Below are positions 1-55,498 of a stretch of 64,000 nucleotides of DNA, piece by piece. The notes under the pieces were generated by a model. That model saw only the letters and a list, made by a program, of their open reading frames with translations. It ran no database searches and was not told the origin of the DNA. The stretch's first letter is position 1. Each line of letters opens with the position of its first letter. The stretch is from Novakomyces olei (Eukaryota): positions 1,178,001 to 1,242,000 of the forward strand of contig JADEYG010000004.1 in NCBI GenBank assembly GCA_016906335.1, in the 5' to 3' direction. The position numbers and the translations under genes were made by a program.

Positions 1-149
1 TATCATTTGAGCCACATTCAATTGTGCTTGTCACTAGCGGCGGACAAATTCGATTTTCGTGTAGAATGCAACTCTATCGGGCAGCCTTAAACGTTAAAAG
101 CATTGGCCTAAATGTCTATTATTACCAGTGGATTAATCTTCAACAATTT

Positions 150-300
150 ACAAATATCCACAATATATCCACAATATATATCCACAATATATCCACAATA
201 TATCCACAATATATCCACAATATATCCACAATATATCCACAATATATCCACAATATATCCACAATATATCCACAATATATCCACAATATAATCACAATAC
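150..300. repeat. 11-bp minisatellite (CCACAATATAT)n
   Basis: About 12 near-perfect tandem copies, read directly; source of spurious ORFs at 24-338. Confidence 0.95.
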
Positions 301-438
301 ATATCGCGCAAACACCAACATGTCCCATCGATACATAATCAGCCTTAATTTTGCCATCTATAATGTATACCGAAATTATTTATTAATTTATTCCGAATAT
401 CATCCACAATCAAATTTTGTCTCTCGCCACACCCGTTC

Positions 439-663
439 ATGTTGTGTGGGTTGGAAGTGCGTCAAGACTATATTTCCGACCGAGGTGAGTGCCATTATAA
501 CCCGCCTTTACTCAATTAACCTGTATTATCGTTATAATAAAGCTCTACTGCTTCATATTGCCTTTTCCCGTCCTTTCTAACGCTCTCTTCTCTTGTCAAT
601 TTGCAAATTAAAAAAAGTTTCTACTTGGTTGCTGATCCGCTAGTCTGGACAACGAGTGCCTAA
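439..663 (+). CDS. Arginine attenuator peptide uORF, intron-split (439-484, 644-663), MLCGLEVRQDYISDRVWTTSA
   Basis: ATG at 439; GTGAGT donor at 485; CTGAT branch then TAG acceptor at 641-643. The spliced peptide has QDYISDxxW, as in S. cerevisiae CPA1 AAP (QDYISDHIW) and N. crassa arg-2 AAP (QDYLSDHLW). It stops 25 nt before the CPA1 ATG. Confidence 0.9.
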
Positions 664-688
664 CTGATCCAATCAAACTATACTGATA

Positions 689-2210
689 ATGCGTCTCATG
701 TCTGTGGCTCGGCATCCCCGCCAATCTCTGATTGGCGGCATCTGTAAATCCTCGCTCCGGCCAGTCTCTGCCCTCTGCAAGCGTACTCTCCCGGCAGCAG
801 CTTCTGCTCGCGTCTTTTCCCAATCGTCTATGCCGCGGTTCCCCGCTCCTGTTGCCAAAGGACACCAGGACGGTTTCCATGTATCGCCGACACTTGCTTC
901 AAGCGACGCGCTTGATCGTGCTACTTTTACGATTATGGTACGTTGCTCTTTTTATCATCTCTTTTTATCAGCTCTTTTTATCAGCTCTTTTTATCAGCTC
1001 TTTTTATCAGCTCTTATTATCAGCTCTTTAATCAGCTCGTTTTATCAGCTATTTTTATCAATTAATTTTCACAAATTGATCTAACTGGCAGGACGGCCCC
1101 GTCTTCCACGGCTTGTCGTTCGGTGCCAAGCAAAACGTCTCGGGCGAGGCCGTGTTCACAACCTCTCTTGTCGGCTACCCCGAGTCAATGACCGATCCGT
1201 CGTACCGTGGCCAGATCCTGGTCTTTACGCAGCCTCTTATCGGCAACTATGGTGTGCCCTCGTCCGAGGCGCGTGACGAGTACGGATTGCTGCGTTTCTT
1301 TGAGTCTCCCCAAATCCAGTGTGCCGGAATTGTCGTGAGCGACGTTGCCCTCCGCTACTCCCATTGGACGGCCGTCGAGTCTCTCGGCGAATGGTGTGCG
1401 AGACAGGGCGTGGCAGCTGTCTCTGGCGTCGACACTCGGGCAATTGTGACTCTGCTGCGTGAACGCGGCTCTTCCCTCGCTAAAATTACAGTGGGCGAGG
1501 AGTACGATGAGAACGATGACGAAGCCTTCAACGACCCTGGAGCTATCAACCTGGTCCAGGCTGTTACTACAAAGCAGCCTTACTCCGTCACCAGCGGGCA
1601 CGGAAAGCTGCACGTGGCCGTTCTCGACTGCGGAGTCAAAGAGAACATTCTGCGATCGCTTGTCCGCCGAGGTGCTGACGTCACTGTATTCCCCTACGAC
1701 TATCCGATCCAAGAAGTGGCGGACAAGTTTGACGGAGTGTTCCTGACCAATGGTCCGGGCGACCCTACTCACGCGATCAAGACCATTGAAAACTTGCGTG
1801 AACTGACCTCGTTCTATGAAGGCCCAATAATGGGTATTTGCTTGGGCCACCAGCTGCTTTCTCTCGCAGCCGGAGCCAAAACGATAAAGCTCAAGTATGG
1901 CAATCGCGGACACAATATCCCTGCTCTCGATATTGCTACCGGCCGCTGCCATATCACGTCGCAGAACCACGGGTACGCTGTTGACGCGGCCACTCTGCCC
2001 GCCGGCTACCGTGCGACCTGGGTCAATTTGAACGATGACAGCAACGAGGGTATTAGCCACATTTCCCGGCCAATTTCGTCTGTGCAGTTCCATCCAGAGG
2101 CCAAGGGCGGCCCGCAGGATACGTTTTACCTGTTTGATAACTACATTAGCCAGGCAGAAAAGTATGCCAGTGATCGTGCAGCATCGCACGTTTCCCGCGT
2201 GGGTGCTTAG
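689..2210 (+). CDS. CPA1: Arginine-specific carbamoyl-phosphate synthase small (glutaminase) subunit; exons 689-937, 1092-2210
   Basis: Basic mitochondrial-presequence-like N-terminus; [36 protein letters not shown] and FHPE motifs; GTACGT...CTAAC...CAG intron. Confidence 0.96.
950..1060. repeat. 13-bp intronic minisatellite (ATCAGCTCTTTTT)n
   Basis: About 8 tandem copies inside the CPA1 intron. Confidence 0.9.
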
Positions 2211-2244
2211 AAATATTATTGGGAATTTTCAAAGTATACAGCTC

Positions 2245-2313
2245 GGTAGAGTATACGGGTGGTAGAGTATACGGGTGGTAGAGTATACGGGTGGTAGAGT
2301 ATACGGGTGGTAG
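2245..2313. repeat. 16-bp tandem repeat (GGTAGAGTATACGGGT) x4
   Basis: Four perfect copies just downstream of the CPA1 stop. Confidence 0.95.
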
Positions 2314-2339
2314 ATTAGTGTTTCTAGATGTTTGATATC

Positions 2340-3170
2340 TCTTAAATTGTAATTAGAATTCTCGCGGACGCGTACTGTACACTGCGCCGTGTTTCCGAAA
2401 CGTACGAGCCTACTCGACACGGAGTAAGAGACCCGAAATGTTGGGGATTTTAGCCGTTGTAGAGTGGTATTTTGTCTATGGACAAAAGACAAGTTTACAA
2501 GGGGGAACCTATGTTAACGGTCAAGCTTGGCCTATTGCATTCTAGAGTATTTCACAATATAACTGGGTTAACTTTACTGCTGTAACGTGAAGGCGGCCTC
2601 CGGGGCGCCGTAACAGACACTCGTAGACAAACAATTAATAACTTTGGCTTTCAAAAGAGGCAGAAGGCCGGCCTTTTATAGCCTTTAAGACAAAGAAGGA
2701 CAAAGGGCAAGAGCAAAGGACAAATACAATATTTCTCTTTTTAGGAACTACTTCTACAAGGGAGATAAGGGACCCCGTAGTCTCACAACCTATTTTGCAT
2801 AATAAAATATTGCACAATAATGGTAAACGCTTTGAAAAATAATATGACAGACTCTGGGCAATATGGCCAAAACGATGAAAAGGCATAATATAGTTGGAGC
2901 ACGAAATAATATGTGCCTGCAAATAACAATGCACTACCGCCCTACTGCACAGGATTCATAGACGTGTAGTAAGGACGAATGAAAAAACGGCAGGGAATAT
3001 AGAACATTATGCAAAGCGATGCAGAGGCAAATACCCGATCGACTCAATTATTAGGGTTAGGGTTAGTTAGGTTTTGGCCGAAGTCTGCACTGACGTAGCG
3101 ACGGCCTGGGGACGAGTGGATAAGCAAAAGTATGCTTGCTATACAGCACATACGCGTTATTGTTACTGTA
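2340..3170 (-). ncRNA. Candidate telomerase RNA (ends uncertain)
   Basis: Minus-strand template-like CCUAACUAACCCUAACCCUAA (3071-3051) follows a GC hairpin (3106-3076). Two nested 7-bp long-range helices (3148-3142/2584-2578 and 3118-3112/2624-2618) enclose it and a U-rich/A-rich pseudoknot-capable segment. No credible ORF here. Confidence 0.5.
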
Positions 3171-3240
3171 CTACCTTATTATCTACTCGCACGGATAGCC
3201 AGGTGATTGAATCTAATTGTATAGCAATTCAACTCAAACC

Positions 3241-4768
3241 CTACCAATCATTATCCCAATCATCTCCTCCTCGTGCCTCTGAAGTACGAGAGATCTTTTC
3301 TACACTATGCTGCCGGCCATGAGCTCCGTAGGAAGCGGATTTAGGCTGGCTCGAGCTGGTGCTTAACTGCCTTGCCTTAATCGCGCCACTAGTTCCCTCC
3401 TCAGAAGCAGGAAGTGTGCTTCCGTACGAGGACCGACGCGAACCGTTATTCCCGTCATACGAATACTTTGCACTTTCAGCTTCCAACGATTGACTTTCGT
3501 TGTTTATGCGATTTATAAAAGAAGAATTCTCTGCTTGAGGTATTCCCTCTTGTGCCAGTCGGGAAAGTCTATCCATCCCTTGCATTGTTCCATCTTGGAT
3601 TTTCCGCCCAATATCCTCAAATTGCCGACTAATTCCACTCTCGTCTAATTGCTGTTGAACTTGTTTCGAAGTGCTAGCCGCCCAGCGACCCAAAGCTGAC
3701 CAGCCCAGACTCAGGCTGGAAGCCACGTCTTCTATACCAGAAGGCCAGGCTGCCGTTTCGGCTGGTGCTTCATTAGAAGAACCAAATCCCGCGTACCGGC
3801 CACCTTGGCTCGGGGGTAGATTGTCCGGCCGAGCCGCGTTTACAGAACCAAGTGAGGAAAAGTACGCTTCATTTTCAGCTTTTCCGTATGAATCTGAAAT
3901 AATTAGAGTATGACTAGAGATATAATCAGAGCAGACAAGGAAGGAGTAAAGCAAAACACACGAATATATCCAATTAAAAATTGTAAAGCGAGATTAAAAA
4001 AAGAGGAATAAACTAAAAAGCAATAGGATTAAATGTGCATAAAAAACGGCAAGCGACTAGACACAAGCAAACACAAAGTTAAATACAAAACACGCCACGC
4101 CACAACACGCTTACTTTTTATCCCGTCGATCCTATCGTTTGTGCTTCCATTGGAAAAACTATTGCTGCCGCTCGTGCTTTGTCTAGCAAGTCTAGCTCTG
4201 TCTTGCGGATCTTTCTGGACCCATTCGCGGCCTTCTGCATCGGCAGAGAGCTTATCTCGATAATCCTCCGCAGCAGGGCTGCTATACTTTTCGCGAATAC
4301 TTTGGCCGCTCACATAGTCCGGCCGGCTATTAAAAAAGTCTTTTGCTCTTTGGTTTCCACCGACCTTTCCAAAATTAGGTTCAGCTTGTCCATTACAAAA
4401 GTCGGTCCATTAAAAAAGATAAAAAGTACGGAATAAATAAAATGTATGGACGCAAGTGAGAATATAACGCGACCAAACCGGCGCGCCAGCTAGGCTTGCC
4501 GAGTGTTTACCTGCATTTTCCGTATTTGAGCATCACTCCATTTGTCCATAGTTATACTGCGGACGAATGATACGTGCACGCCCAACCCGCGATGCTGTCC
4601 AGAGCACTCTAAGCCTGTTCAAATATCAGTAAAATAGCTGCTTTCGAGTCCAATTTCAATACAAATGAATATGCCGTTATTTACAGATGCCCATTGTGGG
4701 TTAGGCGCCTGGCAATCGGCACACGACCGGTTGCCACCCTGTTTCTGCAGGTCCAACAGCTTGTTCAT
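3241..4768 (-). CDS. GCS1: ADP-ribosylation factor GTPase-activating protein (Gcs1/ArfGAP1-like), 4 exons
   Basis: Spliced CADC-x16-CLEC zinc finger, [22 protein letters not shown] motif, [12 protein letters not shown] and a DDWDNDW tail. Confidence 0.9.
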
Positions 4769-5298
4769 CGACGTAATGCCGTTCGCGATACTCGGACGTG
4801 CTTGATATACGCACGAAATATTACTTGTATTTGGACACATGATTAGCGCTGTGAAGATTGAATTAATATCCGATTATGAGTAATCTGCGGCCGCTGACAC
4901 AAACAATATACTGTAGCTTCAATGCTTATCGTTTACAACACAAACCCGTTTGGCTTGATAGATTGGATAATTGTATGTACAAAAGAGACTGTACTAGGGT
5001 TCTTGCATGCTTTAGCTTCTGGCTTGGGAAATTGCCTTCATTATGCTAGTGCTGCCTGTCACATTGGCAAACTAGTTTGAATTGGTTTAAATATATTTAT
5101 TATTTACTATTTATCATTTATCATTTTTTATTTATCATTTATTTGTTTTTGCTTAATGGACAGATAGTTTACCTCGAATCCCGGAATCAAGGCCACTCGC
5201 TTTTAGGGATCACGAAAAAAAGGCGCAATAAATAGAACAGAGAAATAGAGCCCCAAAATTAAACCAAAATTAGTCTGATAGCGCTTGGACCCGTAAAC

Positions 5299-6043
5299 CT
5301 ATGCAAAAAACGTTCCAACAAGCAGTACCGTCAGACCGGTAAACGAAGAAGCAGCGACAATATTTGCGCTTCGTTTCCAGCGCGCAAACTCAATTTCTAC
5401 TGCCTCTGCGTTTTTCTCGTCTTCGTCGCTCATTAGTGGCAACCTCCACCAACAAATGGTACTGCCGGCAGCCAGTAGCGTAGTATAGAGAAGATATGGG
5501 TGCCGGACATATGTGGGCGATACCGCGTAAGCGCCGACGAAGCCAAGAGTAGCTAGAGATCCTAGTAATAGTCCAGGGATGTGTAATCTGATAAGAAAAT
5601 TAGCACATTTTGCAATAAAAAAGCGATAGAAACGAGGGCAGACAGCAGGCTGATAAAAGAAACCAAGACAGGCTAGAAGAAAGCGAAAAACAACAGGCCA
5701 AACGGGTGAGGCAATCAAGAGTAGCCAAACCCATAAGCTTAGCAGTAAAATCCTTCCTGAGAAGCACGTGAACAGTTCCGGAATAGAATAAAACAGAGAT
5801 TAAAGTTAGCTTCAACCCACTTTTTAGCTGCGCGCGTGACAGATAGAGTGGACAGCCGCGCCGAAGTGGCCAACTCGGGAATCAATACGGAAAGAGCTAC
5901 GGCACCTCCCTAAAAAAATACCCAAAAAAGATCAAAGGTCAGTATAAGGCATTTAAAAGGCGATAACCTACGGCGGCAGCTGTAAGCGACAAAGTGCCTA
6001 CAAGCTTACTGACTCCGACAATCACGCGTACACACTGATGCAT
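5299..6043 (-). CDS. ATG33: Atg33-like mitochondrial outer-membrane protein, 3 exons
   Basis: SKLVGTLSL N-terminus, SP..RHPYLLYT motif, several hydrophobic helices; frame is consistent across two GT-AG introns. Confidence 0.7.
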
Positions 6044-6637
6044 TTTGTATTGCGATGATTTCGATTGTGCAAGAACAAGAGGCAGATCATAATATACGTA
6101 TGGAAATAAAAATATAATTTATCAATGTACTATTTTTTAATGCCATCTTTCATGCCTTTGAACATATAAATTAATTTTAATCTATGCGTGACATGTGAAA
6201 GAGTACTAGGAAGTAAAAGACGCAGGAAATAAAAGACGCCATATGCATAGAACTTGAATATTGTATAGAATAATGGAATTATAATGGAATATTATAATGG
6301 AATATTATAATGGAATATTATAATATATAATTTTATATCGAGTATTTTTCATGAAACTCTGAACAGCTCTAGAATGTAGAGTCGATGATTGTCTGTAGAA
6401 TCGTGGTACAAGCACCTTTCTCAAACACTTTGACAAAGTAAGCGATAACGTGTTCTATCGTAAAACGCTGCTTTACTGCAGAAGCCTGCTGTATTGCTCG
6501 AGTATAACACTCGCGATAATATACAAAACTAGTACTTGAAAGCCTTTGGATATAACGTAGAGATATCAGGTGTAAAATACATTCACATGCACGTCGCTGC
6601 ACACTCTTACTCCATGCTTGTCCTTCGCTCGCCAAAT

Positions 6638-9511
6638 CTAAGTATGCAATCCCTTCCCACTCGCACTAAACTCGGTGGCATTCGCATCATACTCCAAAAA
6701 TCGGCCGAGACGACAGCTGAATTTATGCGCCAGCCAAAGGATTCTAGTCCTTCTTGCCGAGTGCCACAGAGACTCCTGTGACGGATGACTTGCTTCGTCG
6801 TAAAAGTATTGCAAAACATCGGGAATTTCAGGCTCACGTCGCCAAATCCAAGCTGTCCACGGCAGACAAAGCAGTACCGGATCCTCTGGGCACTGCAATT
6901 CCAAAGCATGAGCAGCAAAGACCGTCTCTAATGCGCCGCCAGCGCCAGCACCAGGCCCCACAGAGCCTCTGTCTCCAGCCGGACTAGAGTCTTCCGCTTT
7001 AACTTGCCTGGCCAGCCGAGTACATACCTGAGCAAGCTGTGTCCAGGGAAACAGATTGAGGAGCACGCCCATCTGCTCTGGGCCCAGGCACTCGTCGCCA
7101 CGCTCACAAAGATGGTAAATGTAGGCCATCAGCACAAAAGTCCCAGGGCCCTGCTCAGGCTCGTTCAGGCTCCAATGCACACAGGCCTCGTAAAAGCATG
7201 AAATATCCGCCAAATTCGTTACACTATTTCTCCACACAAAGGGCGAATTCTTCAAATTTTGTTTAAATTTGTCTCCGCCGTGGGAGTCAACAAACTTTTC
7301 CAGTCGGTAGCTGAGTATTAGTCGCCTCGTCGAACTGACTTCTGCGTCCCTTTCAGCTGCCATTGCTGCCTCGGGCGCCATTGCAGTCGTGCCGTCACTC
7401 ATCTCTGCATCGCGCCGCTGTATATTGCGAAGGCAAAAGAGCACACACAAACACATCGACAGTTGGTCCATGTCACTGCTGTCACTGGCAAATATTTGCT
7501 CAACCAACGCCCTAAATTCGTTGGGAGACTCGCCGGCCAGCAAGCAATGCATTAGATACACATCGAGTCCCGGACCGTAGCGGACACGTGGGTCTGTGCT
7601 GCTTAGAGAACCATCAAACTGCCCACAGTACTGAGCAATGTAGGCAAGGATGAACGTGCCATAGTCCCTGGCGGGCTGCCTGCACATGGACGAGGCCAGT
7701 GAGGAAGCCAGATTGTCGTAAATGTCCTCGTCAAACATTGTAGATACAAGCAACGAGTCGCCAGCATCTCGCTCGTAAGCTAGGGCCCTTGTGGTCAAGT
7801 CCAGTCTTAAATCTGACGCCTGTGAAAACGAAAGACTGCCTATACTGGACGCCGGAGTAGGCTGTTTGCTGTCCAGCTGCCGGGGACTGATGCTTGCTCG
7901 CAAGTCCGAGTTTTGTCCTCTTTCAAAGCTTGTATTTTCGTCGTGAATAAACGTGATTGAGGATTCAAGTATATTTGCCATCAACTGCAGGACCAGAGCC
8001 TGCTCACACCCGGCCTGCTCGTACACCACACCGAGGGAGAAGTAAGTTTCCAGCAGAACGATCTCCAAGATTTCCCTTATTGCCGGCGGACTGGTAGAGC
8101 GGGAAAACTGGGTAAAAGGCTGCAGTACATTTGCATACAATCGCGAGAATATACGGTGACGGTAGACGAGATGCTTCGTTCCTGCTGAGGCTGACGGAGT
8201 CTGCGTCAGCATTATAAAATCCCAAAATCGATCAAACGCCTCAAAGTACCGATCAACACACTCTAACAATACCTTGAACGCTGGACTAGTGCCGCCTACT
8301 CTAGAGTCTGCGCCTTGAGTGTCATTGGTTAGTAAATCACCAGCGTCCCAAAAGGCATTTACATTTACGCCATGTCCAGAGCCCCTGCCAGCTCCTACGG
8401 TCCCAGGCCCGGTAACCACTCGGCCCATACATTTACAAAACTTGGCCTCGCTTACGCACAAGGCAGCGTATGCGTCTTGCAGGCATTTTACAAAATCATC
8501 AAAGTCGATTGCACGAGTTTCCAGTGCAGGTTTACGTGCTGCACGTTGCAAGAGCGAGTACTGTACAGGCGCCGGCTGGTGAGCATGAGGAGACGGCTGT
8601 TGGTAGTGTTGCTGGTACGGCTGTGCTGGAGACTGCTGCTTGTACCGCTTTCCCCTTGCCAGTTCCGTATCGACACTATTGCTGCCATCCCGACCAGGCC
8701 CGGGATTAGTGCTGCGACCGGCTCCGCGTCCACTCCGGCCTCCACTCCGGCCTCCACTCCGGCCCCGGCTCCGGCCCCGGCCCCGGCTGCCACGTGCAGG
8801 CAATTGCAGGGCAGACTGAGGCGGCAGCTGTGACTGTGACTGAGGCTGGGCATTGTCCCTGTCCCTATTTTCTTTGGCCGCCGGACCGGCAAATGCGTTA
8901 CCGGCTAACGCTCCGGCTCTAGCCGTACTGCCTTCCAGGCTGTTTGTGGCCTGAGCTTTGCTCCCACTGCTTAGCTGTACGGAAAACCCTGCATTGTGTA
9001 ACTGCCGCGGGCCGGTGGATTCCTGCAGCGAATCCTGCTTGCGATCGGGTTTAAGAGCCGTCGGTTTGCCCTGAGCAGACACGGCAAAAGGCCGTGCCAC
9101 TCTGTTCTCGTCAGCCTCGCGTCTGGCGCCCGCCTCCATCTCGACAAACGGCAGAGGGTGCACCTCGTTTGCACTATTCCTATACCCATTGCTATCGCTA
9201 TTGCTATTGCTATTGCTATTGCTATTGCCATTGCCATCACGGTCTCCACTGGCTGACGGCCTGGAACGCGTAAGCAGCCGGACCGGTTCACGGACAGCCC
9301 TGCCGCCGGTGCCGGTCTCAAGAGCCAAAGATTGGGAGTCAGGAGCCGAAGATTTGGCTGCTCGAGAGCCACGCAGAGGACGTCCTCGGGTGGAAGAAGC
9401 GAGCTTGCCTCTCTGCGGATTCGTGCTCCTCGTGTAATGCTGGAGAGGCATTGCGCCAGCGCGAGTCGCAGGCGATCCTGATTCTTCGGAATCACTGCCG
9501 CCCGCTGCCAT
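6638..9511 (-). CDS. Est1/Ebs1/SMG7-like helical DNA/RNA-binding protein with disordered N-terminus
   Basis: Segments YAALCVSEAK, DFIMLTQTPSAS, PEDPVLLCLPW and RRTRILWLA resemble the conserved blocks of filamentous-fungal Est1-domain proteins; intronless 957-aa ORF. Confidence 0.62.
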   Translation of the reverse strand: MAAGGSDSEESGSPATRAGAMPLQHYTRSTNPQRGKLASSTRGRPLRGSRAAKSSAPDSQSLALETGTGGRAVREPVRLLTRSRPSASGDRDGNGNSNSNSNSNSDSNGYRNSANEVHPLPFVEMEAGARREADENRVARPFAVSAQGKPTALKPDRKQDSLQESTGPRQLHNAGFSVQLSSGSKAQATNSLEGSTARAGALAGNAFAGPAAKENRDRDNAQPQSQSQLPPQSALQLPARGSRGRGRSRGRSGGRSGGRSGRGAGRSTNPGPGRDGSNSVDTELARGKRYKQQSPAQPYQQHYQQPSPHAHQPAPVQYSLLQRAARKPALETRAIDFDDFVKCLQDAYAALCVSEAKFCKCMGRVVTGPGTVGAGRGSGHGVNVNAFWDAGDLLTNDTQGADSRVGGTSPAFKVLLECVDRYFEAFDRFWDFIMLTQTPSASAGTKHLVYRHRIFSRLYANVLQPFTQFSRSTSPPAIREILEIVLLETYFSLGVVYEQAGCEQALVLQLMANILESSITFIHDENTSFERGQNSDLRASISPRQLDSKQPTPASSIGSLSFSQASDLRLDLTTRALAYERDAGDSLLVSTMFDEDIYDNLASSLASSMCRQPARDYGTFILAYIAQYCGQFDGSLSSTDPRVRYGPGLDVYLMHCLLAGESPNEFRALVEQIFASDSSDMDQLSMCLCVLFCLRNIQRRDAEMSDGTTAMAPEAAMAAERDAEVSSTRRLILSYRLEKFVDSHGGDKFKQNLKNSPFVWRNSVTNLADISCFYEACVHWSLNEPEQGPGTFVLMAYIYHLCERGDECLGPEQMGVLLNLFPWTQLAQVCTRLARQVKAEDSSPAGDRGSVGPGAGAGGALETVFAAHALELQCPEDPVLLCLPWTAWIWRREPEIPDVLQYFYDEASHPSQESLWHSARRTRILWLAHKFSCRLGRFLEYDANATEFSASGKGLHT

Positions 9512-31589: not shown

Positions 31590-32055
31590 ATTAATAATGA
31601 AATAATAATATAATAATATAATAATATAATAATATAATAATATAATAATATAATAATATAATAATATAATAATATAATAATATAATAATATAATAATAAT
31701 AATATAATAATATAATAATATAATAATATAATAATATAATAATATAATAATATAATAATATAATAATAATAAAATAATAAAATAATAAAATAATAAAATA
31801 ATAAAATAATAATATAATAAAATAATAAAATAATAAAATAATAAAATAATAAAATAATAAAATAATAAAATAATAAAATAATAAAATAATAAAATAATAA
31901 AATAATAAAATAATAAAATAATAAAATAATAAAATAATAAAATAATAAAATAATAAAATAATAAAATAATAAAATAATAAAATAATAAAATAATAAAATA
32001 ATAAAATAATAAAATAATAAAATAAAATAATAATAATAATAATAATAATATAACA
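31590..32055. repeat. Compound AT microsatellite (TAATATAA)n/(TAAAATAA)n
   Basis: About 450 bp of pure A/T 8-mers between convergent RPO41 and NOP53. Confidence 0.97.
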
Positions 32056-32176
32056 ATAATAGCAGCAGCAGGCTTTTTAGTTGACTCTATTATCATTGCC
32101 TTTTACCCAAACTATGGAAATCAATACAAACCCAATAACGTATCTATTATCAATCTTAACCTGAATCCCACAACTG

Positions 32177-47029: not shown

Positions 47030-47520
47030 TTCATAATCCTCGTAATTATTCAAAAGTAGAAGTGTAATTTTATGAGTTGGTCGTTATATGTAGTTTTCAT
47101 TATTCATTATTCATTCTCATTATTCATTTTTCATTATTCATTTTTCATTATTCATTATTCATTTTTCATAATCCTCGTAATTATTCAAAAGTAGAAGTGT
47201 AATTTTATGAGTTGGTCGTTATATGTAGTTTTCATTATTCATTATTCATTCTCATTATTCATTTTTCATTATTCATTTTTCATTATTCATTATTCATTTT
47301 TCATTATTCATTATTCATTTTTCATTATTCATTATTCATTATTCATTATTCATTATTCATTATTCATTATTCATTATTCATTATTCATTATTCATTATTC
47401 ATTATTCATTATTCATTATTCATTATTCATTATTCATTATTCATTATTCATTATTCATTATTCATTATTCATTATTCATTATTCATTATTCATTATTCAT
47501 TATTCATTATTCATTATTTA
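47030..47520. repeat. 135-bp tandem duplication followed by a (TTCATTA)n array
   Basis: Unit starting TCATAATCCTCGTAATTATTCAAAAG occurs at 47031 and 47166. Confidence 0.92.
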
Positions 47521-47696
47521 TTTTTCATTATTCATTATTTGTTATTTGTTATTTGTTATTTATTTTTCATTATTTATTTTTCATTATTTGTTTATATATA
47601 CATTTATATATACATTTTACATTGCCTTACAATCATCGTCTATATTTATTCAAATAAATCATAAATTCATGGATGTGTGCAAACTAAACACAATCG

Positions 47697-50600
47697 TCAA
47701 GGGTACTCAAACAGTCCGTCGTCACCAAAATCCTCTGCTGCAGCACCGCCACCCCCACCGGGCGAGCCACCGCGGACAAGGCTGTGTGACAAAATAGCCG
47801 CTACTCGTGGGTAAAACTCTGGAATATTATCAGCCCAGTCGGGAGCGTCAGAGCCCTCGGAACTCTTTGACTCGACCGGTGTTACTGGAGCATCTTCCGT
47901 GAAAAACACGTCTAAATTGTGCAGAGCAGAGACCATATCGCCAAGCGTAGCGTTTTCCACATGATCCTCCGACGACGCCAGTGTATCCTGCCTATCCGCA
48001 GCATCTGTGAAATCCTCAATATGGAACTGAATTTCCACATTACCCGAAGGCTTCTCCGTACTTGTATGGGCACAAGTGTAAAAAGTAGCGTGCACATTAC
48101 CCCTGGCAGCAGCTGTCGCGAGCACAGGCGAAGGAATCGCCCATCCAGAGGTTGAAGGAATGCCAAAAAGTGTACCCGTCTTGTCAAACTCTTTACGGGC
48201 CGACCGAAAATTGCCAAACGACATTCGCAGTACACTTCTGTTGATGGGCTCAGCAGCGGCAGAAACAACACTCTCATTGTCCAAGACATCGAGCGCCTGA
48301 GCGGCTAAATCTGTCTGCAAGAGCCGTAGAAGCGGAGCCAGTAGCTCTGCTCCAAAGGAACTGAACGAGGCAGTGTTGAGCATAGGCGTTAGCACTTTGA
48401 GAATATCCAAAACCCGCAGCTTTATCCACTGCTCCTGGTTGCTCAAAAGGCCCAACAGGAATATCAGTGCATCGGCCTCGTGCAGTGGGAAAAAGGCCTG
48501 TGCACAGCTGCCCAGTAGCTGTTTTGTGAAATCCACAACGTTGCGGAACCGCGCGTTTGCAAACGAGTCCAAGACTCGAGCAATACTGTGCTGAGACTGG
48601 GCAGTGGCCAGCCGAGCCAGCTTGCCCGCCGTTTTCTGGCTGCCTCCTTTTGTATCGTCATTGCTGCTTTCGTAATTGGATTTGTCGTAATTGTTTTTGT
48701 AATTGTTCTTGTCGTAATTATTTTTATGATAATTATATTTATCATGATTGTTCTTGTCATGACTAATTTTATCATAATTTTTATCATAATTTTTATCATT
48801 TTTATCATAATATTTATCATGATTATTTTTGTAATTATTCAAATTCGAGTTTACAATATTGTTATATGGACTATTGCTGCTCGCGTTACTGGCGAGGTCA
48901 GGAAAAGACTCGACAAACCTTGGCGCAGAGGCCAAAATGCCATACATGAGCCGCACGTCTGCGGGCCCAAGCAGCTCGCTGGAATCCGTGTCGAGCAGTC
49001 GGTCGAGGGTAGCGACACAGGGCGCAAATGTACGGCTGGATTTGAACCCCTTTAGCAGCAGCGTAACAATCCCGTCAAAACTGCCCTCCCAACGTGGGGG
49101 AAAAGTGGATACGAGAAAGGCTACATTCTGCGGAGTGCCGATATCCACACGGTCCATAATCAGGTTCAGGCAGACAAGGCACTGTAAAAACTCTTGCTCA
49201 TTGGCTGTCTGAAGGCTGGCGACTACGGCCCAAAAGAGTTGGGGGAAAGCGAGAGCCTGCTCGCCATCGAGTCGCTCAATAATCATTGTAATCGTCCTCA
49301 GAATCTCCATGGCAAAGCCCTGAATGTCTACAGACACATCCGAGATGGTATTGGACAGGCGAGCAAGCATATCCGCCAGCATGCTCTGGTCAATATTCGG
49401 GTCCAGGCAGCGAAAGATCTGGAAAGAGCGGCAGGCGATGTGCCTTACAGGGCAATAAGTTGCCCAGTTGAGGGCGGTTATGGCCCACAGCGATCTCAGG
49501 TCGGGAAGGCAGGCTGAAAAGTCGTCAACCAGCTCGTGGATGAGGCTCCTCATCCGCTCTTTTGCCGGCTGGTGCCGGTACATGTCCATATCCTCGTACG
49601 CCCAAAACAGCGGGGCACTAGTACTGTGGTGGTGGTAGTGGTGGTCGGCACTTGTGCTGCTTAAACGTACAGCAAACTCGAGAAACCTGCGCTGCCTTTC
49701 GGGATCAGACTCGTTGGGGACGGCAATGTACACGATCAAATGGCGCAGCATTGTCTCCATTTGGCCACGGACAAAGGCGTTGTAATGGTCGAGCAGGGCC
49801 AGCGTGGCTTGCAGCACCAGCGGCAGCGAGCCCGCCATGCTCGGCAGCGGCTTTTCTACCAGCAAATCGACCATTAGAATAATTGCGACTTTGGCACTGG
49901 AGAGGATAACCGGCTTGCCTTTGCCCGCTGACGCCTTGTCAAGATCAGCGACGTAGGGGAATTGCTGCTGCTGGTCGGGTGACCAGCCTGATTCTCCAGC
50001 GGCAGCTCCAACTGCAAGTCCACTCTGGCCCCCACCACCCCCACCTTGACCCCCACCTTGACCCCCACCTTGACCCCCACCTTGACCCCCACTACCCCCA
50101 CCTTGACCCCCACTACCCCCACCTTGACCCCCACCTTGACCCCCACCTTGACCCCCACCTTGACCCCCACCTTGACCCCCACCTTGACCCCCATTTTGAC
50201 CCTCTCTGACATAGGGAATCATGAATTTCGGCTTCAAATGGACCATCAACGCCTCCATCAGCTTTTGGCCTGCGCTTGTGCGGCCAAGGTAGACGATGAT
50301 TTGCTTGGCAAACATAACAAACTCGGGTCTCCGGCGCTGGAGACTCTGGCGCATAACAAAATCGAGGATTGCCTTGACGTTCCCCGGATACGGGTTCGAA
50401 GCCAGCGCCGTCCACAGAGCCTCCATCTCGTTTTGCAGGCGGACACTGCACCCGACAGACAGCTCGTACAGGTTGGCCAGGACCATATGAGCTGCGGGAG
50501 TCAGCTCTTCTCCGTCCGGCTCGACTTGCAGCTCGATAACGTGCAGCCAGGGAAGCATAACACTGACCATATCTCGACGCCTCAGCTCGTCAATAGCCGA

Positions 50601-53600
50601 AAATATCTGGCAGCACTGCGAAAAGACATACGCAGCCACTGCCGGCAGCGCTGAAGCCCATGTCGAAGAGGCTACAAACTGCGGCTTTTTCGCAATTGCT
50701 ACTGTGCCACTTCGCAAGGCAGAGAGGTAGACGGCCGAGGTGCTCGTGCCCAGCAGGTCCTGCTCGTACTTGAGCTGCAGCGATCCCGCGACAAACCTCA
50801 CCTCCACATCCTCGTCGCCCAGCTTGTGCAGGCAGAGTGCCAGGACTTTGTAAGGCTCAACGCACAAGGCCGCCCGACTGTCCATTAACGCATCCGCCAG
50901 GCCAAGAAAAAAGTACTTGGCCGCTGGACAAGAAGAAGAAGAAATAGCACAAGAGCCAGAACCAGAACCAGGAGAAGGAGCAGTAGAAGGAAAAGTAGAA
51001 GAAGAAGAATGAAAAGCAGAAGAAGGAGCCAAAGTAGAAGCAAAAGTAGAAGCAAAAGTAGAAGAAGCAATAGAAGACCCTCTCGAGTCCAGAGCAAAGC
51101 AGCAAGTATAGGCGGCCAAGTACAATTGCACGTTATCCTGATTGCTCTGCAGCAAGTTCCGCAGAGCTCGAGCGCCAATGTTTACAATATGCGTCCGCCC
51201 GGCAAACAAGGCAGCTATCCAGTTGAGAAGGGCCCTTACATTGAACGACATTGTCGCCAGACTGTCCTCTCCAAGGACAAGACTTTGGCTGATGCCGCCA
51301 GCGCAGAGAGCTGCCATTGCACTCGCAGCCGCGTCCTCCACGTTCCTCTTGTCAATCTCCATTTGAGCAATCAAAGCTCCCCTATCCCGAACGTCCCGGG
51401 ACTGCTGGAGAATAGCAGTCCGCATTTTTTCGTCTCTGGCTCGAGACAGTTGCTCGCTGATCCCAAAGCCACACCATTCTTCCAGCAGCCGGAAGGCAGA
51501 GACTCTGCCTTCAAAGGGGATCAGGGCAGACGGGTTGGCAGTGGTCACGACAGCTGCCATTACCAGCTCGAGAAAGCGGCAAAAGTACCGTCTCAGCCGC
51601 TGGTACTCCCAGTCGTTTTGCACTTCTGCGTCAGACAGAAAGGATTTCAGGTCTTTTAAATACGAGAGCACTATCTGCAACGTCCACTTGTCCCGCAGGT
51701 ACATATCGTCCTGAAGGAAATGGCAGGTGGAGGCAAAAATGTGGGTAATCTCACTCCTGTACAGGTCAGTTTGACGGTTCTTGCGGGCCGCTGCTGCGTA
51801 AGGCCGATGCGCTAATCGTGAAGCTGTGTCCAACTGGACAGCGACAATCAGCGGCTGCAGTTCTTCAAGCAGCGTCTTGAACAGGTTTACGTTTATATTG
51901 CCAATGGCCGACACCATTGCCTCCCGAATGTTTGATAGCTCAACAGACAGCAGGGGCAGAACCATTTGGAAGATGGCTCTCGCTGAGCTTATCCGCTCAA
52001 TATTGGGGACACTAATCGACCGTTTCTTGCCGTGCCTCTGCACTGAGCGGGGGTACTGCTCATGCGTACTCGTCATGGTAGAAAAGGCTACAATCAAATC
52101 CAGTTTCCACTGCTCAATCAGGCACTCTGGCGATCCAAAGTTTTTCGGTAGCTTTGGCGTTATATCAAAGGGCGAAGGCAGTTTAAAGCTGTCAATAGAG
52201 GCAAGAATAACCGGGTTCGATTTAACCAGACGAGAGCAGATGCTGTTGCGGCAAAGCGCTACACAGACAGGCATCTTGGACTGCGCTAGTTTGATGAATT
52301 TGGCGAAAATATGGAACCAAATTGCCGCGTCTACTCCACTCTCGCTCTCTGCCAGCATTATCAGCGCCATGTGCCGATTGTCCCCAACCACACGAGCAAT
52401 ACGCGCCTTTTCAATAGCAGAACGGTGGGCAGTCTCGCTCTCGAGCAGGCTGACTGCCTCGTTCTCAATCACATCAATGAGCCGATCGTTTTTCATATCA
52501 GCGTCCGTCGATTTTGACGATTTCCGGCCATGAGAGGCCTGGTAGTTTCGGCCGGCTTCCAGTTGCTCATCTAGAGCGCTGTCCAGTAGCGTTACTAGCC
52601 GTAGCATTTTAATCGCTCGTTTACGGACAGTATAAAACTGATTGCAGAGAAAAAAGAGCCCATTTGCCTCTGTTTCCTCAATGATTGTCCACACAGACGT
52701 AAGCCCCAACTCCTCCCTCCGCCCCCCATCACTGGCTGGCCCTCCAGCCTCCAAAGCCCTGTCAATTTCAAGCGTTTTAGCTCGTATCCTTTCGATCCAA
52801 ATCTCCAACAGACTCAGGTAGATATCGAGTACGGACTCTGCATTAAGCGCAGTCAGAACCGTATCGCCAGAGATAACAAACCATCCATCGTACAGAGCAA
52901 TTAATTTGGAGTAAGTTGTAACCACAACTTCTGCCTTGTAGCGCCGAGCAAATGCCTCGATAGACAGTCGGGCCTGCTGAGAAATATTGGGGTCTGTGTG
53001 TGCAATGTTCTTGCAGACAATATCGATAATTTTGGCCACTGGGTACTTTTTGTCATCCACACAATGCGTACACGTCTCCAGCAGCACTACGAGCAAATCG
53101 AAAAACAGCTGCTTCTCCTTATTGCCCACTACCCTCAACAGCGGAATCATCTCTGGCGTACCGGGCGACCGAGTTCGCCGGCTTGTTTGAAACTGTACCT
53201 CTAACGCTGCCTCGCCTCCAAAGTGAGCATCGCAAAAGACGAGCAGTTTGATCAAGGCGGCCATGACTTTTTCCATTGTATCTTGGGCTAACGGTATACT
53301 CGCCAGATTATCAGCAACCTCGAACCGAAAATCTTGCTCCATTACAGACTCGATAGAGTGCGGGAAGGGCGGCTCAACGGGGGCAGTTTTGTAGTCGTAC
53401 ATGATACCAAAAAAGCCCTTGATGGCAACACACAGTCTTTCCGGACACAGGTCTTCTATACTGGCGGCCGCTATTTGTACAGAAGAGTTTATCGGGGACG
53501 CGTAAGCAGCCGAGCTCAACAAGGGCAGGACCAGGGTGCGGAAGCAATAGTCCGGGTGCGTGTACCCGATGATACGAACAAGCTCTGACAAGTGGTCCAG

Positions 53601-55331
53601 GCAGCCTGTCACGACAAAGGACGAAGACTTGTTTGAAGGCAGAACCAGTTTGATCAAAGTGTCCAGCTTTTTAATAGTGGCATTCAGACTCTCTGGGTAC
53701 CGATTAATGTAGACCCATACGAGCCTGATTATCCCCATCAGTGCCACCGATGGATTCGACTTGAAACGGGACGCATTTGCCTCAATCAGAGGGAGCCATT
53801 GAGCATGGAAAAACTCCTTTGGAGAGACACAAAGTATTGTGCACGACAGGGGAAAAGCAACCCCGAAATGCCGGACTTTAGTCGACATTTTGCTCGCCTT
53901 TGGGAACAGGAGCTCTGTTGTCCTTTGCCAAGCTGGAATATTGACCTCGACAGAGGCCACACCAGCAATAGACAGCAGCAGCCGGTTAAAGATATAAGTG
54001 TAAGCATGCTTTATCCGTGCACCGTGTGCTTGCGTGTAGAATTTTGCGAGGGAAAGCGTGAAATCAGCACACTCTTCCATTGCACTTATCGGGTATATCT
54101 TCATCTTCAAGTAGCGCATGCCGTTTATAATCATCTCCAGCTGAGCCTCACGCTCCTTGTTGAGCTGCTGGCCTCCAAACTTTTCCAAATCCTCGATAAA
54201 CCGGTCGCTGACACTCGTGAACCGTAGGGCAGAGAGATGGCCAAGCAGCTCTGCAAACAGGTTCCAGTTGGCCAATTTTAATGGACTCGACGAAATGGTT
54301 TCCCAGTCTGCCGATTTCAGTTGGTTGTACACAATCGTCTCGAGCCGTTCTGCCAATTCGTCACCCAGCGTCTCGATCGAAAGCTGCTGGACAATGGCAA
54401 TAAGCCCACGGCACAGAATGTATATCGACACTAGAGACTTGCGCTCTGCAACAACAGAATAATCGTTGCCAGGAGCGGCAGCTGCAGAATCTCCTCCTCC
54501 ACTTGCTCCTCCCATTTTGTTCCCAGCTGTACCAGCACCGTGAGCAAACGGTGAGGAAGCATTTACAGCATTTACAGCATTTACAGTGGCAGCATTTACA
54601 GTGGCAGCAGCAGTGGCAGTACTGCCTCTCCTCAAAGTGCCAGTCTCACGTACGTGTGAGGCTGCCGCTGCGGCTTTTAGCCTCCGCCAGTGCATAAGGC
54701 AGTCGATCACAGGCTTCGGCCGGCTGCGGGCAATGTGCCCGAGACTGTTAAGCAGGTTTTCAAAGACAGGATCGGCTCCCGGCCCAAGGATCACGTGGAC
54801 ATTTGGCTCCGAGTCAAACGAGTTTGGCCCTACAACGCTGTTCAGCTTTAGCTCAGCGTCACGTGCAAATGCGGTAAAGACTATATGCAGAGTATACTCG
54901 GCCGGCAGAGCTGGCACAGGTCCTTGTCCCTGTCCCTGTCCTTGTCCTTGTCCTTGTCCTTGCTGGGCTACTGAGCCAGAGGCAGTACTGCCCAGACCAG
55001 TATTGGCTGCCGCGCCAGCGGGTACAGTGCCGCCAGCGGTAAGCAGAGGCAGAGCCGAGTCTGTGGCTGAGCAATTGCCGCCGCCGCTACTGCCCGCGTC
55101 CTGTGAGTGCACGTTTAATGGGAAAACTGGCTGACGCGTGCCTGGAAGACTCGCCTGGCGATTATGGAGTTTGCGGACACGTGACTGCGCTGCCGCAGCA
55201 GCACTCAGCGAGAACTGCCTTCCCAGAGTTTTTTTCTCCACTGCCGCCAGCGCTGGCGGCGCTGGCGGGGGTGGCGGGACCGCTGAGCCCGAGATATCGA
55301 TCTGGTCTGCCGTCGGACCGCGCTGATCCAT
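47697..55331 (-). CDS. TAO3: RAM/MOR network scaffold Tao3/Pag1/Mor2 (Furry family)
   Basis: [54 protein letters not shown] and TLFGIP..SGWAIP; intronless 2544 aa. Confidence 0.95.
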
Positions 55332-55498
55332 TTCTCAGGCAGGCAGATACGGAGTTTCTACCAGTTGGCCATTATACAGTCGGCGTAGACGATCGGCAGC
55401 TCGTTAGGGTTAGTGTGGCCGTTGCGGCGTGGTTTACTCTGCCTGACGCGCTAGAGACCGTGCTTGATTGGGTGCCAAATCATCGTTTTTTGTTGTTG

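What the first reader, a model, noticed from the sequence alone, without database searches (positions are those of the whole stretch)
2340..3170. Candidate telomerase RNA gene in the CPA1-ArfGAP spacer (minus strand)
Seen, 5'->3' on the minus strand: UGCUGUA (3148-3142); CACUCGU (3118-3112); a GC-closed hairpin GGCCG...CGGCC (3106-3076); AAAA; CCUAACUAACCCUAACCCUAA (3071-3051); about 320 nt; a U-rich tract then AAAGGC/AAAAGGC (2725-2671) able to form an H-type pseudoknot (CCUU/AAGG plus GUCUU/AAGGC); ACGAGUG (2624-2618); a GC hairpin; UACAGCA (2584-2578). The two 7-mer pairs are perfect and nested. Established: fungal TERs have a core-enclosing helix, template-boundary hairpin, template, pseudoknot and then CR4/5, in this order, and are too divergent for routine annotation. 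Inference: this is the organism's TER.
Basis: partly seen in the sequence, partly recalled or inferred. Interest (0 to 1): 0.85.

Follow-up and report, generated by a model that had tools for sequence, protein, structure and literature searches.

The report
Telomere-like tract; telomerase RNA unproven
A 21-base telomere-like tract with a hairpin beside it lies between two converging fungal genes, but the other structures proposed for a telomerase RNA are no better than chance, so the tract is more likely a protein-binding telomere box or a relic than the telomerase template.

Summary
The flanking genes are CPA1 and an ArfGAP.

Two features stand out from chance:
- The telomere-like tract at 3071-3051. 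Sixteen of its bases are in perfect TTAGGG register, and it is the only exact CCCTAACCCTAA in 64 kb.
- The hairpin 4 nt upstream, weakly. Only 5% of 39-nt windows fold as well.

The other proposed elements are at chance level or absent:
- Nested 7-bp helices appear in 30% of shuffles.
- Compact pseudoknots of this size occur 6-8 times per kb.
- My descriptors found no P5-P6-P6.1 junction, no triple-helix pseudoknot and no AU4-7G Sm site.
- Rfam gave no telomerase hit.
- The minus strand folds no better than shuffles.
- The 3' arms of both helices lie in a short dispersed repeat.

The decisive tests could not be run. No genome is held, no RNA run is listed, and the nearest CPA1 relatives are only 77% identical.

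My odds are about 0.2 for telomerase RNA and about 0.6 for a non-templating telomere-like tract. Within the latter I favour a Teb1/Tay1/Tbf1-type box over a neutral relic.

The parts
3051..3071 (-). Telomere-like tract CCTAACTAACCCTAACCCTAA. Positions 3066-3051 (16 nt) are in perfect CCCTAA register.
   Evidence: Read. It is the only exact CCCTAACCCTAA in the window. The plus strand has no further TTAGGG nearer than 5203.
3076..3106 (-). GC-clamped hairpin (GGCCG...CGGCC) 4 nt upstream of the tract; the proposed template-boundary element.
   Evidence: It folds at -12.1 kcal/mol and 16 of 200 shuffles fold as well. About 5% of 39-nt windows in the window are as stable, and 0.9% in the spacer.
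3142..3148 (-). 5' arm of the outer 7-bp pair (TGCTGTA); pairs with 2584-2578.
   Evidence: Nested pairs of this kind arise in 30.4% of 2000 shuffles.
3112..3118 (-). 5' arm of the inner 7-bp pair (CACTCGT); pairs with 2624-2618.
3122..3137 (-). Small 5-bp hairpin between the two 5' arms.
   Evidence: It folds at -4.6 kcal/mol and 7 of 200 shuffles fold as well. It was picked after the fact.
2671..2699 (-).
   Evidence: My enumeration found it. The background rate is 6.2-8.4 such pseudoknots per kb, and the spacer has 2.
2575..2692 (.). Short dispersed repeat. It covers both 3' arms (2624-2618 and 2584-2578), the GC hairpin (2609-2592) and the AAAAGGC box.
   Evidence: In run X1 the depth is 3702 against about 1087 for single-copy sequence. 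Other contigs at single-copy depth align here: 2 differences over 69 nt and 10 over 104 nt, and loose ends at 2575, 2589, 2603 and 2643 suggest a third. There is no copy elsewhere in the window.
2405..2416 (-). P6.1-like hairpin CGAG-UAGG-CUCG.
   Evidence: It is one of 2 P6.1-like hairpins in the spacer, which equals the background of 2.1 per kb. It is not preceded by a P6 hairpin or enclosed by a P5 helix in the canonical order, and it is not part of the local minimum-free-energy fold.
2233..2314 (.). Tandem array of a 16-mer, 5.1 copies, just after the CPA1 stop.
1080..2210 (+). Last exon of CPA1 (carbamoyl-phosphate synthase small chain), ending at the spacer.
   Evidence: Pfam PF00988 at 4e-43 and PF00117 at 7.6e-52. 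Relatives are listed.
3241..4873 (-). ArfGAP gene with several exons. Its stop codon lies 170 nt upstream of the tract on the same strand.
   Evidence: Pfam PF01412 on the reading frames 4873-4622 (6.4e-12) and 4618-4493 (3.2e-13).

Best explanation
The tract at 3071-3051 is an interstitial telomere-like box that is not copied by telomerase. Most likely it works as double-stranded DNA: two to three TTAGGG units bound by a two-Myb-domain protein of the Teb1/Tay1/Tbf1 class. It sits about 170 bp past the ArfGAP stop codon, where ArfGAP and CPA1 transcription converge. There a bound protein could act as a boundary or roadblock, or as a promoter element for a short unannotated RNA. The helices and the pseudoknot drawn around the tract are chance pairings in a 1-kb spacer, and part of that spacer is a dispersed repeat.

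Shown: the tract, its isolation, its position, and the chance-level statistics of the surrounding structures. Inferred: protein binding and any boundary or promoter role.
For: Only the tract and, weakly, the neighbouring hairpin exceed chance.

The rest of the telomerase-RNA model does not exceed chance or is absent:
- Nested 7-bp helices appear in 30.4% of 2000 shuffles.
- Compact pseudoknots occur 6.2-8.4 times per kb.
- A tolerant triple-helix pseudoknot descriptor hits 64% of 50 random 1030-nt chunks of the window.
- My strict and relaxed descriptors found no triple-helix pseudoknot, no P5-P6-P6.1 junction and no AU4-7G site on the minus strand.
- Minus-strand folding has z = +0.05.
- Rfam gave no telomerase hit at E<=1 over 1-8000 or at E<=10 over 2200-3260.

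The 3' arms lie in a multi-copy element.

The tract has 2.7 perfect repeats plus degenerate units. One paper states that templates hold more than one but no more than two repeats (PMC3603654, passages).

Internal TTAGGG pairs are a known class in the nearest model lineage. The S. pombe HisBox AGGGTTAGGGTT is bound by Teb1, and TTAGGG repeats occur in 5' regulatory regions there (PMC4839565, passages). Teb1 needs two units to bind (PMC12449055, passages).

Template-like intergenic sequences are not unique to the telomerase RNA gene. In A. oryzae six favoured candidates yielded one TER (PMC3603654).

The same 21-mer turns up in at least 113 metagenome contigs. From the flanks printed (judged by eye), most matches sit among further telomere-like units and none has this locus's flanks.
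Against: The spacer lies between two 3' ends, whereas the known Teb1 and Tbf1 sites described in the passages I read are in 5' regulatory regions.

A stable GC-clamped hairpin 4 nt from the tract is what a template boundary would look like, and it is the most stable local fold in the spacer.

The tract is isolated, with no other TTAGGG or CCCTAA hexamer within about 2 kb of it. That is unlike most array-type interstitial repeats seen.

No Teb1/Tay1 homologue of this organism was examined, and binding is untested. A roadblock or boundary role is recalled from budding-yeast work and comes from no call.
Confidence: 0.45

Rival explanations
1. One reading: the minus strand from about 3150 to about 2340 is the organism's telomerase RNA. 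The template lies at 3071/3066-3051 and the hairpin 3106-3076 is the template boundary. The two 7-bp pairs are core-enclosing helices, and further domains lie downstream.
For: The 16-nt tract in perfect TTAGGG register is single-stranded in the predicted fold and is unique in the window. A stable hairpin lies 4 nt upstream, with a base rate of about 5%. In Aspergilli a short stem-loop or helix about 2 nt from the template is the boundary element (PMC3603654).

The proposed order, enclosing helix then boundary then template then pseudoknot, matches the order stated for telomerase RNAs (PMC13058752, passages). N. crassa TER has two core-enclosing helices (PMC3592445, section 17).

No Pfam family matched the three spacer reading frames I scanned, apart from one sub-threshold hit (frames). 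Several Taphrinomycotina outside Schizosaccharomyces have TTAGGG telomeres (PMC7857110, passages). TERs are too divergent for homology search: 40-45% identity even within Schizosaccharomyces.
Against: The helices and the pseudoknot are at chance level. My descriptors found no P5-P6-P6.1 junction, although that junction is essential in N. crassa and S. pombe. They also found no triple-helix pseudoknot and no AU4-7G Sm site.

Rfam gave no hit. The minus strand has z = +0.05 while the plus strand has z = -3.05. The 3' arms lie in a dispersed repeat.

Only 170 nt separate the ArfGAP stop from the tract, which leaves little room for a 3' UTR, a promoter and a 5' domain. The tract is longer than the usual two repeats or fewer. 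The telomere repeat of this organism is unknown.
Confidence: 0.2
2. The tract is a neutral interstitial telomeric relic. A few telomere repeats were inserted, for example during repair of a break, and are now decaying. It has no function as DNA or RNA.
For: The 5' part of the tract looks like degenerate units (CCTAA, CTAA) next to two perfect ones. The same 21-mer occurs inside degenerate telomere-like arrays in many metagenome contigs.
Against: Sixteen perfect bases in an otherwise unique spacer suggest either a recent origin or selection. There are no further degenerate units around it. My recollection, which comes from no call, is that such relics are rare in compact yeast genomes.
Confidence: 0.15
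3. The box is the promoter element of a different unannotated small RNA gene in the spacer, for example a snoRNA-type gene, as Tbf1 boxes mark snoRNA promoters in budding yeast (recalled, from no call).
For: The 1030-nt spacer has no Pfam-supported reading frame among the three I scanned. The plus strand of 2570-3155 folds better than shuffles, z = -3.05. The plus strand of 2570-2705 forms two hairpins with a hinge.
Against: Rfam found no family. I found no C/D-box pattern on either strand. The two-hairpin element is multi-copy and its fold has z = -1.39 only. There are no expression data.
Confidence: 0.1

Closest known systems
Ascomycete telomerase RNAs with TTAGGG templates (N. crassa TER, Aspergillus TERs, S. 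complicata TER)
   Same: The tract is complementary to TTAGGG, a helix lies just 5' of it, and helices could enclose it. N. crassa has the template 5'-UAACCCUAA-3', a boundary element and two core-enclosing helices (PMC3592445). Aspergilli have a boundary helix about 2 nt from the template (PMC3603654).
   Different: Known templates are 9-11 nt, against 16-21 nt of telomere-like sequence here. Known TERs are 1.2-2.4 kb, while at most about 940 nt are free here. The conserved P6/P6.1 junction with loop NUNGN, the U-A.U pseudoknot and an Sm-like site followed by a 5' splice site were not found.
S. pombe TER1
   Same: It comes from the nearest model lineage by CPA1 identity, 75-77%. In TER1 the 5' and 3' regions pair (P1, then the core-enclosing P2/P3) (PMC13058752), which resembles the nested pairs drawn here.
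   Different: TER1 is 1212 nt with an essential three-way junction, an AU6GG Sm site and spliceosomal 3' end cleavage. None of these was recognisable here. The nested pairs here are at chance level.
U. maydis TER, processed from the 3' UTR of the Emi1 mRNA
   Same: The candidate begins within about 100 nt of the stop codon of a protein gene on the same strand, so a 3'-UTR origin is geometrically possible (PMC9564094, abstract).
   Different: That pathway is described for a basidiomycete only. No transcript data exist here.
Teb1/Tay1/Tbf1 telomere-box sites (S. pombe HisBox)
   Same: There are two or more tandem TTAGGG units at an internal chromosomal site in a Taphrinomycotina-like genome (PMC4839565; PMC12449055).
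   Different: The known sites described are in 5' regulatory regions, whereas this one lies between two gene 3' ends. Binding is untested.

Membership tests
Fungal telomerase RNA | Template complementary to the organism's own telomere repeat, more than one and no more than two repeats long, with direct repeats at its ends | tested here: inconclusive
   The tract is present with 16 nt in TTAGGG register and terminal direct repeats, but it exceeds two repeats (criterion from PMC3603654). The organism's telomere repeat could not be read because no genome is held.
Fungal telomerase RNA | Template-boundary helix just 5' of the template | tested here: met
   A predicted hairpin at 3106-3076 lies 4 nt from the tract and folds at -12.1 kcal/mol. 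16 of 200 shuffles and about 5% of window positions do as well. This is a prediction only; function is untested.
Fungal telomerase RNA | Core-enclosing helix closing the template and pseudoknot | tested here: inconclusive
   Two nested perfect 7-bp pairs exist, but 30.4% of 2000 shuffles give such a pair. Their 3' arms lie in a dispersed repeat.
Fungal telomerase RNA | Pseudoknot with U-A.U base triples | tested here: not met
My strict and relaxed descriptors gave 0 hits. A tolerant descriptor gave 1 hit, but 64% of 50 random chunks also hit. These descriptors are my own and crude.
Fungal telomerase RNA | Three-way junction P5-P6-P6.1, with a 4-bp P6.1 stem and a 4-5 nt loop of type NUNGN | tested here: not met
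   There were 0 composite junctions on the minus strand of the spacer. Two P6.1-like hairpins were found, which equals the background of 2.1 per kb. The criterion is from PMC3592445.
Fungal telomerase RNA | Sm/Lsm site near the 3' end, followed by a 5' splice site for spliceosomal cleavage | tested here: not met
   There is no AU4-7G on the minus strand. GUA-type 5' splice-site strings exist, but this organism's splice signals are loose (ArfGAP introns read), so they carry no weight.
Fungal telomerase RNA | Match to a curated telomerase RNA covariance model | tested here: not met
   cmscan against all 4227 Rfam families found nothing at E<=1 over 1-8000 and only two unrelated weak hits at E<=10 over 2200-3260. 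That Rfam holds yeast and ascomycete telomerase families is recalled and was not checked.
Fungal telomerase RNA | Stable transcript of the template strand that associates with TERT | not testable with these tools
   No RNA run is listed for this DNA.
Fungal telomerase RNA | Conservation and covariation in related species | not testable with these tools
   The best CPA1 relative is 77% identical. Run X2 is identical in sequence. No metagenome contig carries this locus.
Teb1/Tay1/Tbf1 telomere-box site | Two or more tandem TTAGGG units in duplex DNA | tested here: met
   2.7 perfect units at 3066-3051. The requirement for two units is from PMC12449055.
Teb1/Tay1/Tbf1 telomere-box site | Position in a 5' regulatory region | tested here: not met
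   The tract lies between the 3' ends of CPA1 and ArfGAP.
Teb1/Tay1/Tbf1 telomere-box site | Occupancy by the Myb protein | not testable with these tools
   No genome and no chromatin data are available.
Interstitial telomeric repeat | Internal run of telomere-type units with degenerate neighbours | tested here: inconclusive
   Degenerate units adjoin the perfect ones within the 21 nt, but there are none beyond it.

The most novel reading that the evidence does not exclude
The locus is a very small (about 600-800 nt) telomerase RNA of a deep-branching, fission-yeast-related ascomycete. It would be made from the 3' UTR of the ArfGAP mRNA, as U. maydis TER is made from the Emi1 mRNA. The hairpin 4 nt upstream would make the whole 21-nt tract the template. 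The chromosome ends would then carry a compound 16-nt repeat (TTAGGG TTAGGG TTAG) or a mixture of TTAGGG and TTAG units.
Probability: 0.05. Interest if true: 0.75.

Novelty: new member of a known kind. Interest (0 to 1): 0.3.

Why it matters
If this were the telomerase RNA, it would be the first from an unsampled lineage near the fission yeasts. It would be unusually small, with an unusually long template, and it abuts a protein gene, which would bear on how telomerase RNA size and biogenesis evolved.

On present evidence the locus mainly shows that a template-like tract with a few complementary 7-mers is easy to assemble into a convincing-looking model by eye. Such candidates need the telomere sequence, a transcript and covariation before they count.

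Tried and rejected
- **Whole genome:** none is held for this window, so chromosome-end repeats and other template-like loci could not be examined.
- **RNA evidence:** no RNA holder is listed among the sequencing runs.
- **Second run X2:** its contigs are identical to the window (0 other letters in the listed pieces) and patchy (depth 0 in the bins 2417-2563 and 2711-3004). It gives no covariation and says nothing about those parts.
- **Rfam:** no family at E<=1 over 1-8000. At E<=10 over 2200-3260 there were only Plastid-psbA-4 and an L2 leader, both on the plus strand and both far below their gathering scores.
- **tRNA scan:** 0 genes.
- **Copies of the spacer in the window:** none apart from a 19-nt match.
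- **Earlier findings of this scan:** nothing by place, by words or by sequence.
- **Protein atlas with CPA1:** only confirmed the family and gave no taxonomy.
- **Metagenome scan with the 21-mer:** One search suggests it would have found no close relative anyway.
- **Pfam on three spacer reading frames:** two had no family and one had a sub-threshold hit.
- **C/D-box search:** none on either strand.
- **Check that an ascomycete telomerase family exists in the Rfam copy:** this failed because the locus handle was not accepted.
- **Box et al. 2008 on the S. pombe template boundary:** the paper is not held.
- **Supplements:** these are closed. The alignments of the P6/6.1 and pseudoknot regions in the supplements of PMC3592445 could have given a proper covariance model in place of my hand-written descriptors.
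- **Rejected, protein-coding gene in the spacer:** the longest stop-to-stop frame is 106 aa and has no family.
- **Rejected, pure chance for the tract:** a 16-mer in one register is expected about 3e-5 times in 64 kb (my arithmetic).

Full report
**The locus.** The spacer 2211-3240 (1030 nt) lies between two converging genes.
- On the plus strand, a reading frame ending at 2210 carries the CPSase small-chain and GATase domains (PF00988 at 4e-43, PF00117 at 7.6e-52).
- On the minus strand, frames at 4873-4622 and 4618-4493 carry the ArfGap domain (PF01412 at 6.4e-12 and 3.2e-13). The gene runs on through 4409-4032 and ends at 3241.

The title 'CPA1-ArfGAP spacer' is therefore right.

The best CPA1 relatives among 5.8 billion proteins are three Schizosaccharomyces species at 75-77% identity, and nothing is closer. 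The organism is thus an ascomycete with no sequenced close relative in that collection. No whole genome is held for the window.

**The observation.** The tract CCTAACTAACCCTAACCCTAA (3071-3051) has 16 nt (3066-3051) in perfect TTAGGG register. It is the only exact CCCTAACCCTAA in the window. With one mismatch allowed there are 2 matches against a mean of 0.24 in 100 shuffles, and none of the 100 shuffles reached 2. On the plus strand, no further TTAGGG lies nearer than 5203.

**Testing the structures against chance.**
1. *Nested helices.* The spacer holds 48 perfect 7-bp complementary pairs against a mean of 36.9 in shuffles. Eleven of them enclose the tract with the 5' arm within 150 nt, against a mean of 8.3. 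At least one nested pair with gaps of 40 nt or less arose in 30.4% of 2000 dinucleotide shuffles that kept the tract fixed.
2. *Boundary hairpin.* The hairpin 3106-3076 folds at -12.1 kcal/mol, and 16 of 200 shuffles fold as well. About 5% of 9138 39-nt windows per strand reach that energy, and only 0.9% of 991 windows in the spacer do. This is a real but modest coincidence.
Pseudoknots of that size occur 6.2-8.4 times per kb in the window, and the spacer has 2.
4. *Triple-helix pseudoknot.* A descriptor requiring U-A pairs plus a U-rich loop gave 0 hits, strict or relaxed. A tolerant version gave 1 hit, but 64% of 50 random 1030-nt chunks also had at least one.
5. *Three-way junction.* The junction essential in N. 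crassa and S. pombe is P5-P6-P6.1, with a 4-bp P6.1 stem and a 4-5 nt loop of type NUNGN (PMC3592445, section 17). It gave 0 composite hits on the minus strand. Two P6.1-like hairpins equal the background of 2.1 per kb. The better one, CGAG-UAGG-CUCG at 2416-2405, is not in the canonical order and is not in the local minimum-free-energy fold.
6. *Sm site.* No AU4-7G site is present on the minus strand. The consensus is from PMC3603654.
7. *Overall folding.* The minus strand of 2570-3155 folds no better than shuffles (z = +0.05, 47 of 100 as good). The plus strand does fold better (z = -3.05). The 3' part, 2325-2580, has z = -0.17.
8. *Rfam.* Nothing at E<=1 over 1-8000, and nothing telomerase-like at E<=10 over 2200-3260.

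My descriptors are hand-written and crude, and telomerase RNAs diverge fast: identity is 40-45% even within Schizosaccharomyces (PMC13058752). These misses therefore lower the odds but do not exclude the telomerase-RNA reading.

**An unexpected complication.** When contigs of the source-like run X1 were laid on 800-5200, the bin 2564-2710 had depth 3702 against about 1087 around it. Separate contigs at single-copy depth aligned to 2575-2643 (2 differences) and to 2589-2692 (10 differences). Loose ends at 2575, 2589, 2603 and 2643 suggest at least three other copies. This short dispersed repeat contains both 3' arms of the proposed enclosing helices, the GC hairpin between them and the AAAAGGC box. 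A single-copy telomerase RNA core is not expected to be built from a repeat family. This fits the shuffle result that the pairings are accidental. The window holds no other copy.

**Evidence that could not be had.** No RNA run is listed. Run X2 carries the same sequence with no differences, so it offers no covariation. A metagenome scan with the 21-mer returned at least 113 contigs. None has this locus's flanks, judged by eye from the 45-nt flanks printed. Most matches sit among further telomere-like units, and many belong to one repeat family of some other organism. The 21-mer is thus a common variant inside degenerate telomere-like arrays, but here it stands alone.

**What the literature adds.**
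- *For the telomerase-RNA reading.* The stated order is enclosing helix, boundary, template, pseudoknot. N. crassa has two enclosing helices and the template 5'-UAACCCUAA-3'. Aspergilli have a boundary helix about 2 nt from the template, and in one species it is a short stem-loop. Several Taphrinomycotina keep TTAGGG telomeres (PMC7857110).
- *Against it.* Templates hold more than one but no more than two repeats. In A. oryzae six favoured intergenic template-like candidates gave one TER.
- *For the rival.* Internal TTAGGG pairs are a known class in fission yeast, such as the HisBox AGGGTTAGGGTT bound by Teb1, and TTAGGG repeats occur in 5' regulatory regions (PMC4839565). Teb1 needs two units to bind (PMC12449055). 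Those known sites are upstream of genes, whereas this tract lies between two 3' ends, which weakens the rival.

**Geometry.** The tract starts 170 nt after the ArfGAP stop codon, on the same strand. An independent telomerase RNA gene would need the ArfGAP 3' UTR, its own promoter and a 5' domain in that space, which is tight. The alternative is an RNA cut from the ArfGAP mRNA 3' UTR, as described for U. maydis TER (PMC9564094, abstract). That would be new for an ascomycete.

If the hairpin acts as a yeast-type boundary, the whole 21 nt would be template. It would specify a 16-nt compound repeat (TTAGGG TTAGGG TTAG), or mixed TTAGGG and TTAG units. This gives a sharp prediction for the chromosome ends.

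I weighed five things: the base rate of template-like tracts; the hairpin (in favour); the missing junction, pseudoknot and Sm site (against); the repeat-derived 3' arms (against); and the tight spacing (against). My odds are:

| Reading | Odds |
|---|---|
| Telomerase RNA | about 0.2 |
| Non-templating telomere-like box, most likely bound by a Teb1/Tay1/Tbf1-class protein | about 0.45 |
| Neutral relic | about 0.15 |
| Promoter box of some other small RNA | about 0.1 |

Either way it would be a new instance of a known kind. Whether a telomerase RNA has been described for lineages near this organism was checked only by two searches. Among Taphrinomycotina these turned up S. complicata and Schizosaccharomyces TERs only.

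Noticed in passing
window 2575-2692: A short dispersed repeat. In run X1 its depth is about 3.4 times single copy, and at least two, probably three, other contigs at single-copy depth align at about 90-97% identity. The plus strand of 2570-2705 folds into two hairpins separated by a hinge (z = -1.39). Comparing one paralogue's loose end by eye, several differences are T/C changes that keep G.U pairs on the plus strand. The element's nature is unknown: a small mobile element, or a small-RNA-like family.
   Followed up: partly
window 55404-55415 (+): TTAGGGTTAG followed by TG lies about 70 nt beyond the upstream end of the 2545-aa minus-strand reading frame (47700-55334). It is a telomere-box-like motif in a promoter position, and it shows that such boxes occur elsewhere in this genome.
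   Followed up: no
whole window; for example 2233-2314, 945-1060, 150-299, 31593-32061, 47096-47588: The intergenic regions are unusually rich in micro- and minisatellite arrays (112 Tandem Repeats Finder rows in 64 kb). One is a 16-mer repeated 5 times directly after the CPA1 stop codon.
   Followed up: no
window 3990-4640 (-): The ArfGAP gene has at least three short introns with loose signals, read by eye: 5' splice sites GUAUUG, GUAAAC and GUAAGC; branch sites CUGAU and CUAAU; 3' splice sites CAG, AAG and UAG. Intron-like strings in non-coding DNA of this organism therefore carry little weight.
   Followed up: partly
L001-L113 (metagenome contigs): Many of the contigs that hold the 21-mer share one conserved flank on both sides of it. 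They are copies of a single repeat family that ends in telomere-like units, from some other eukaryote.
   Followed up: no
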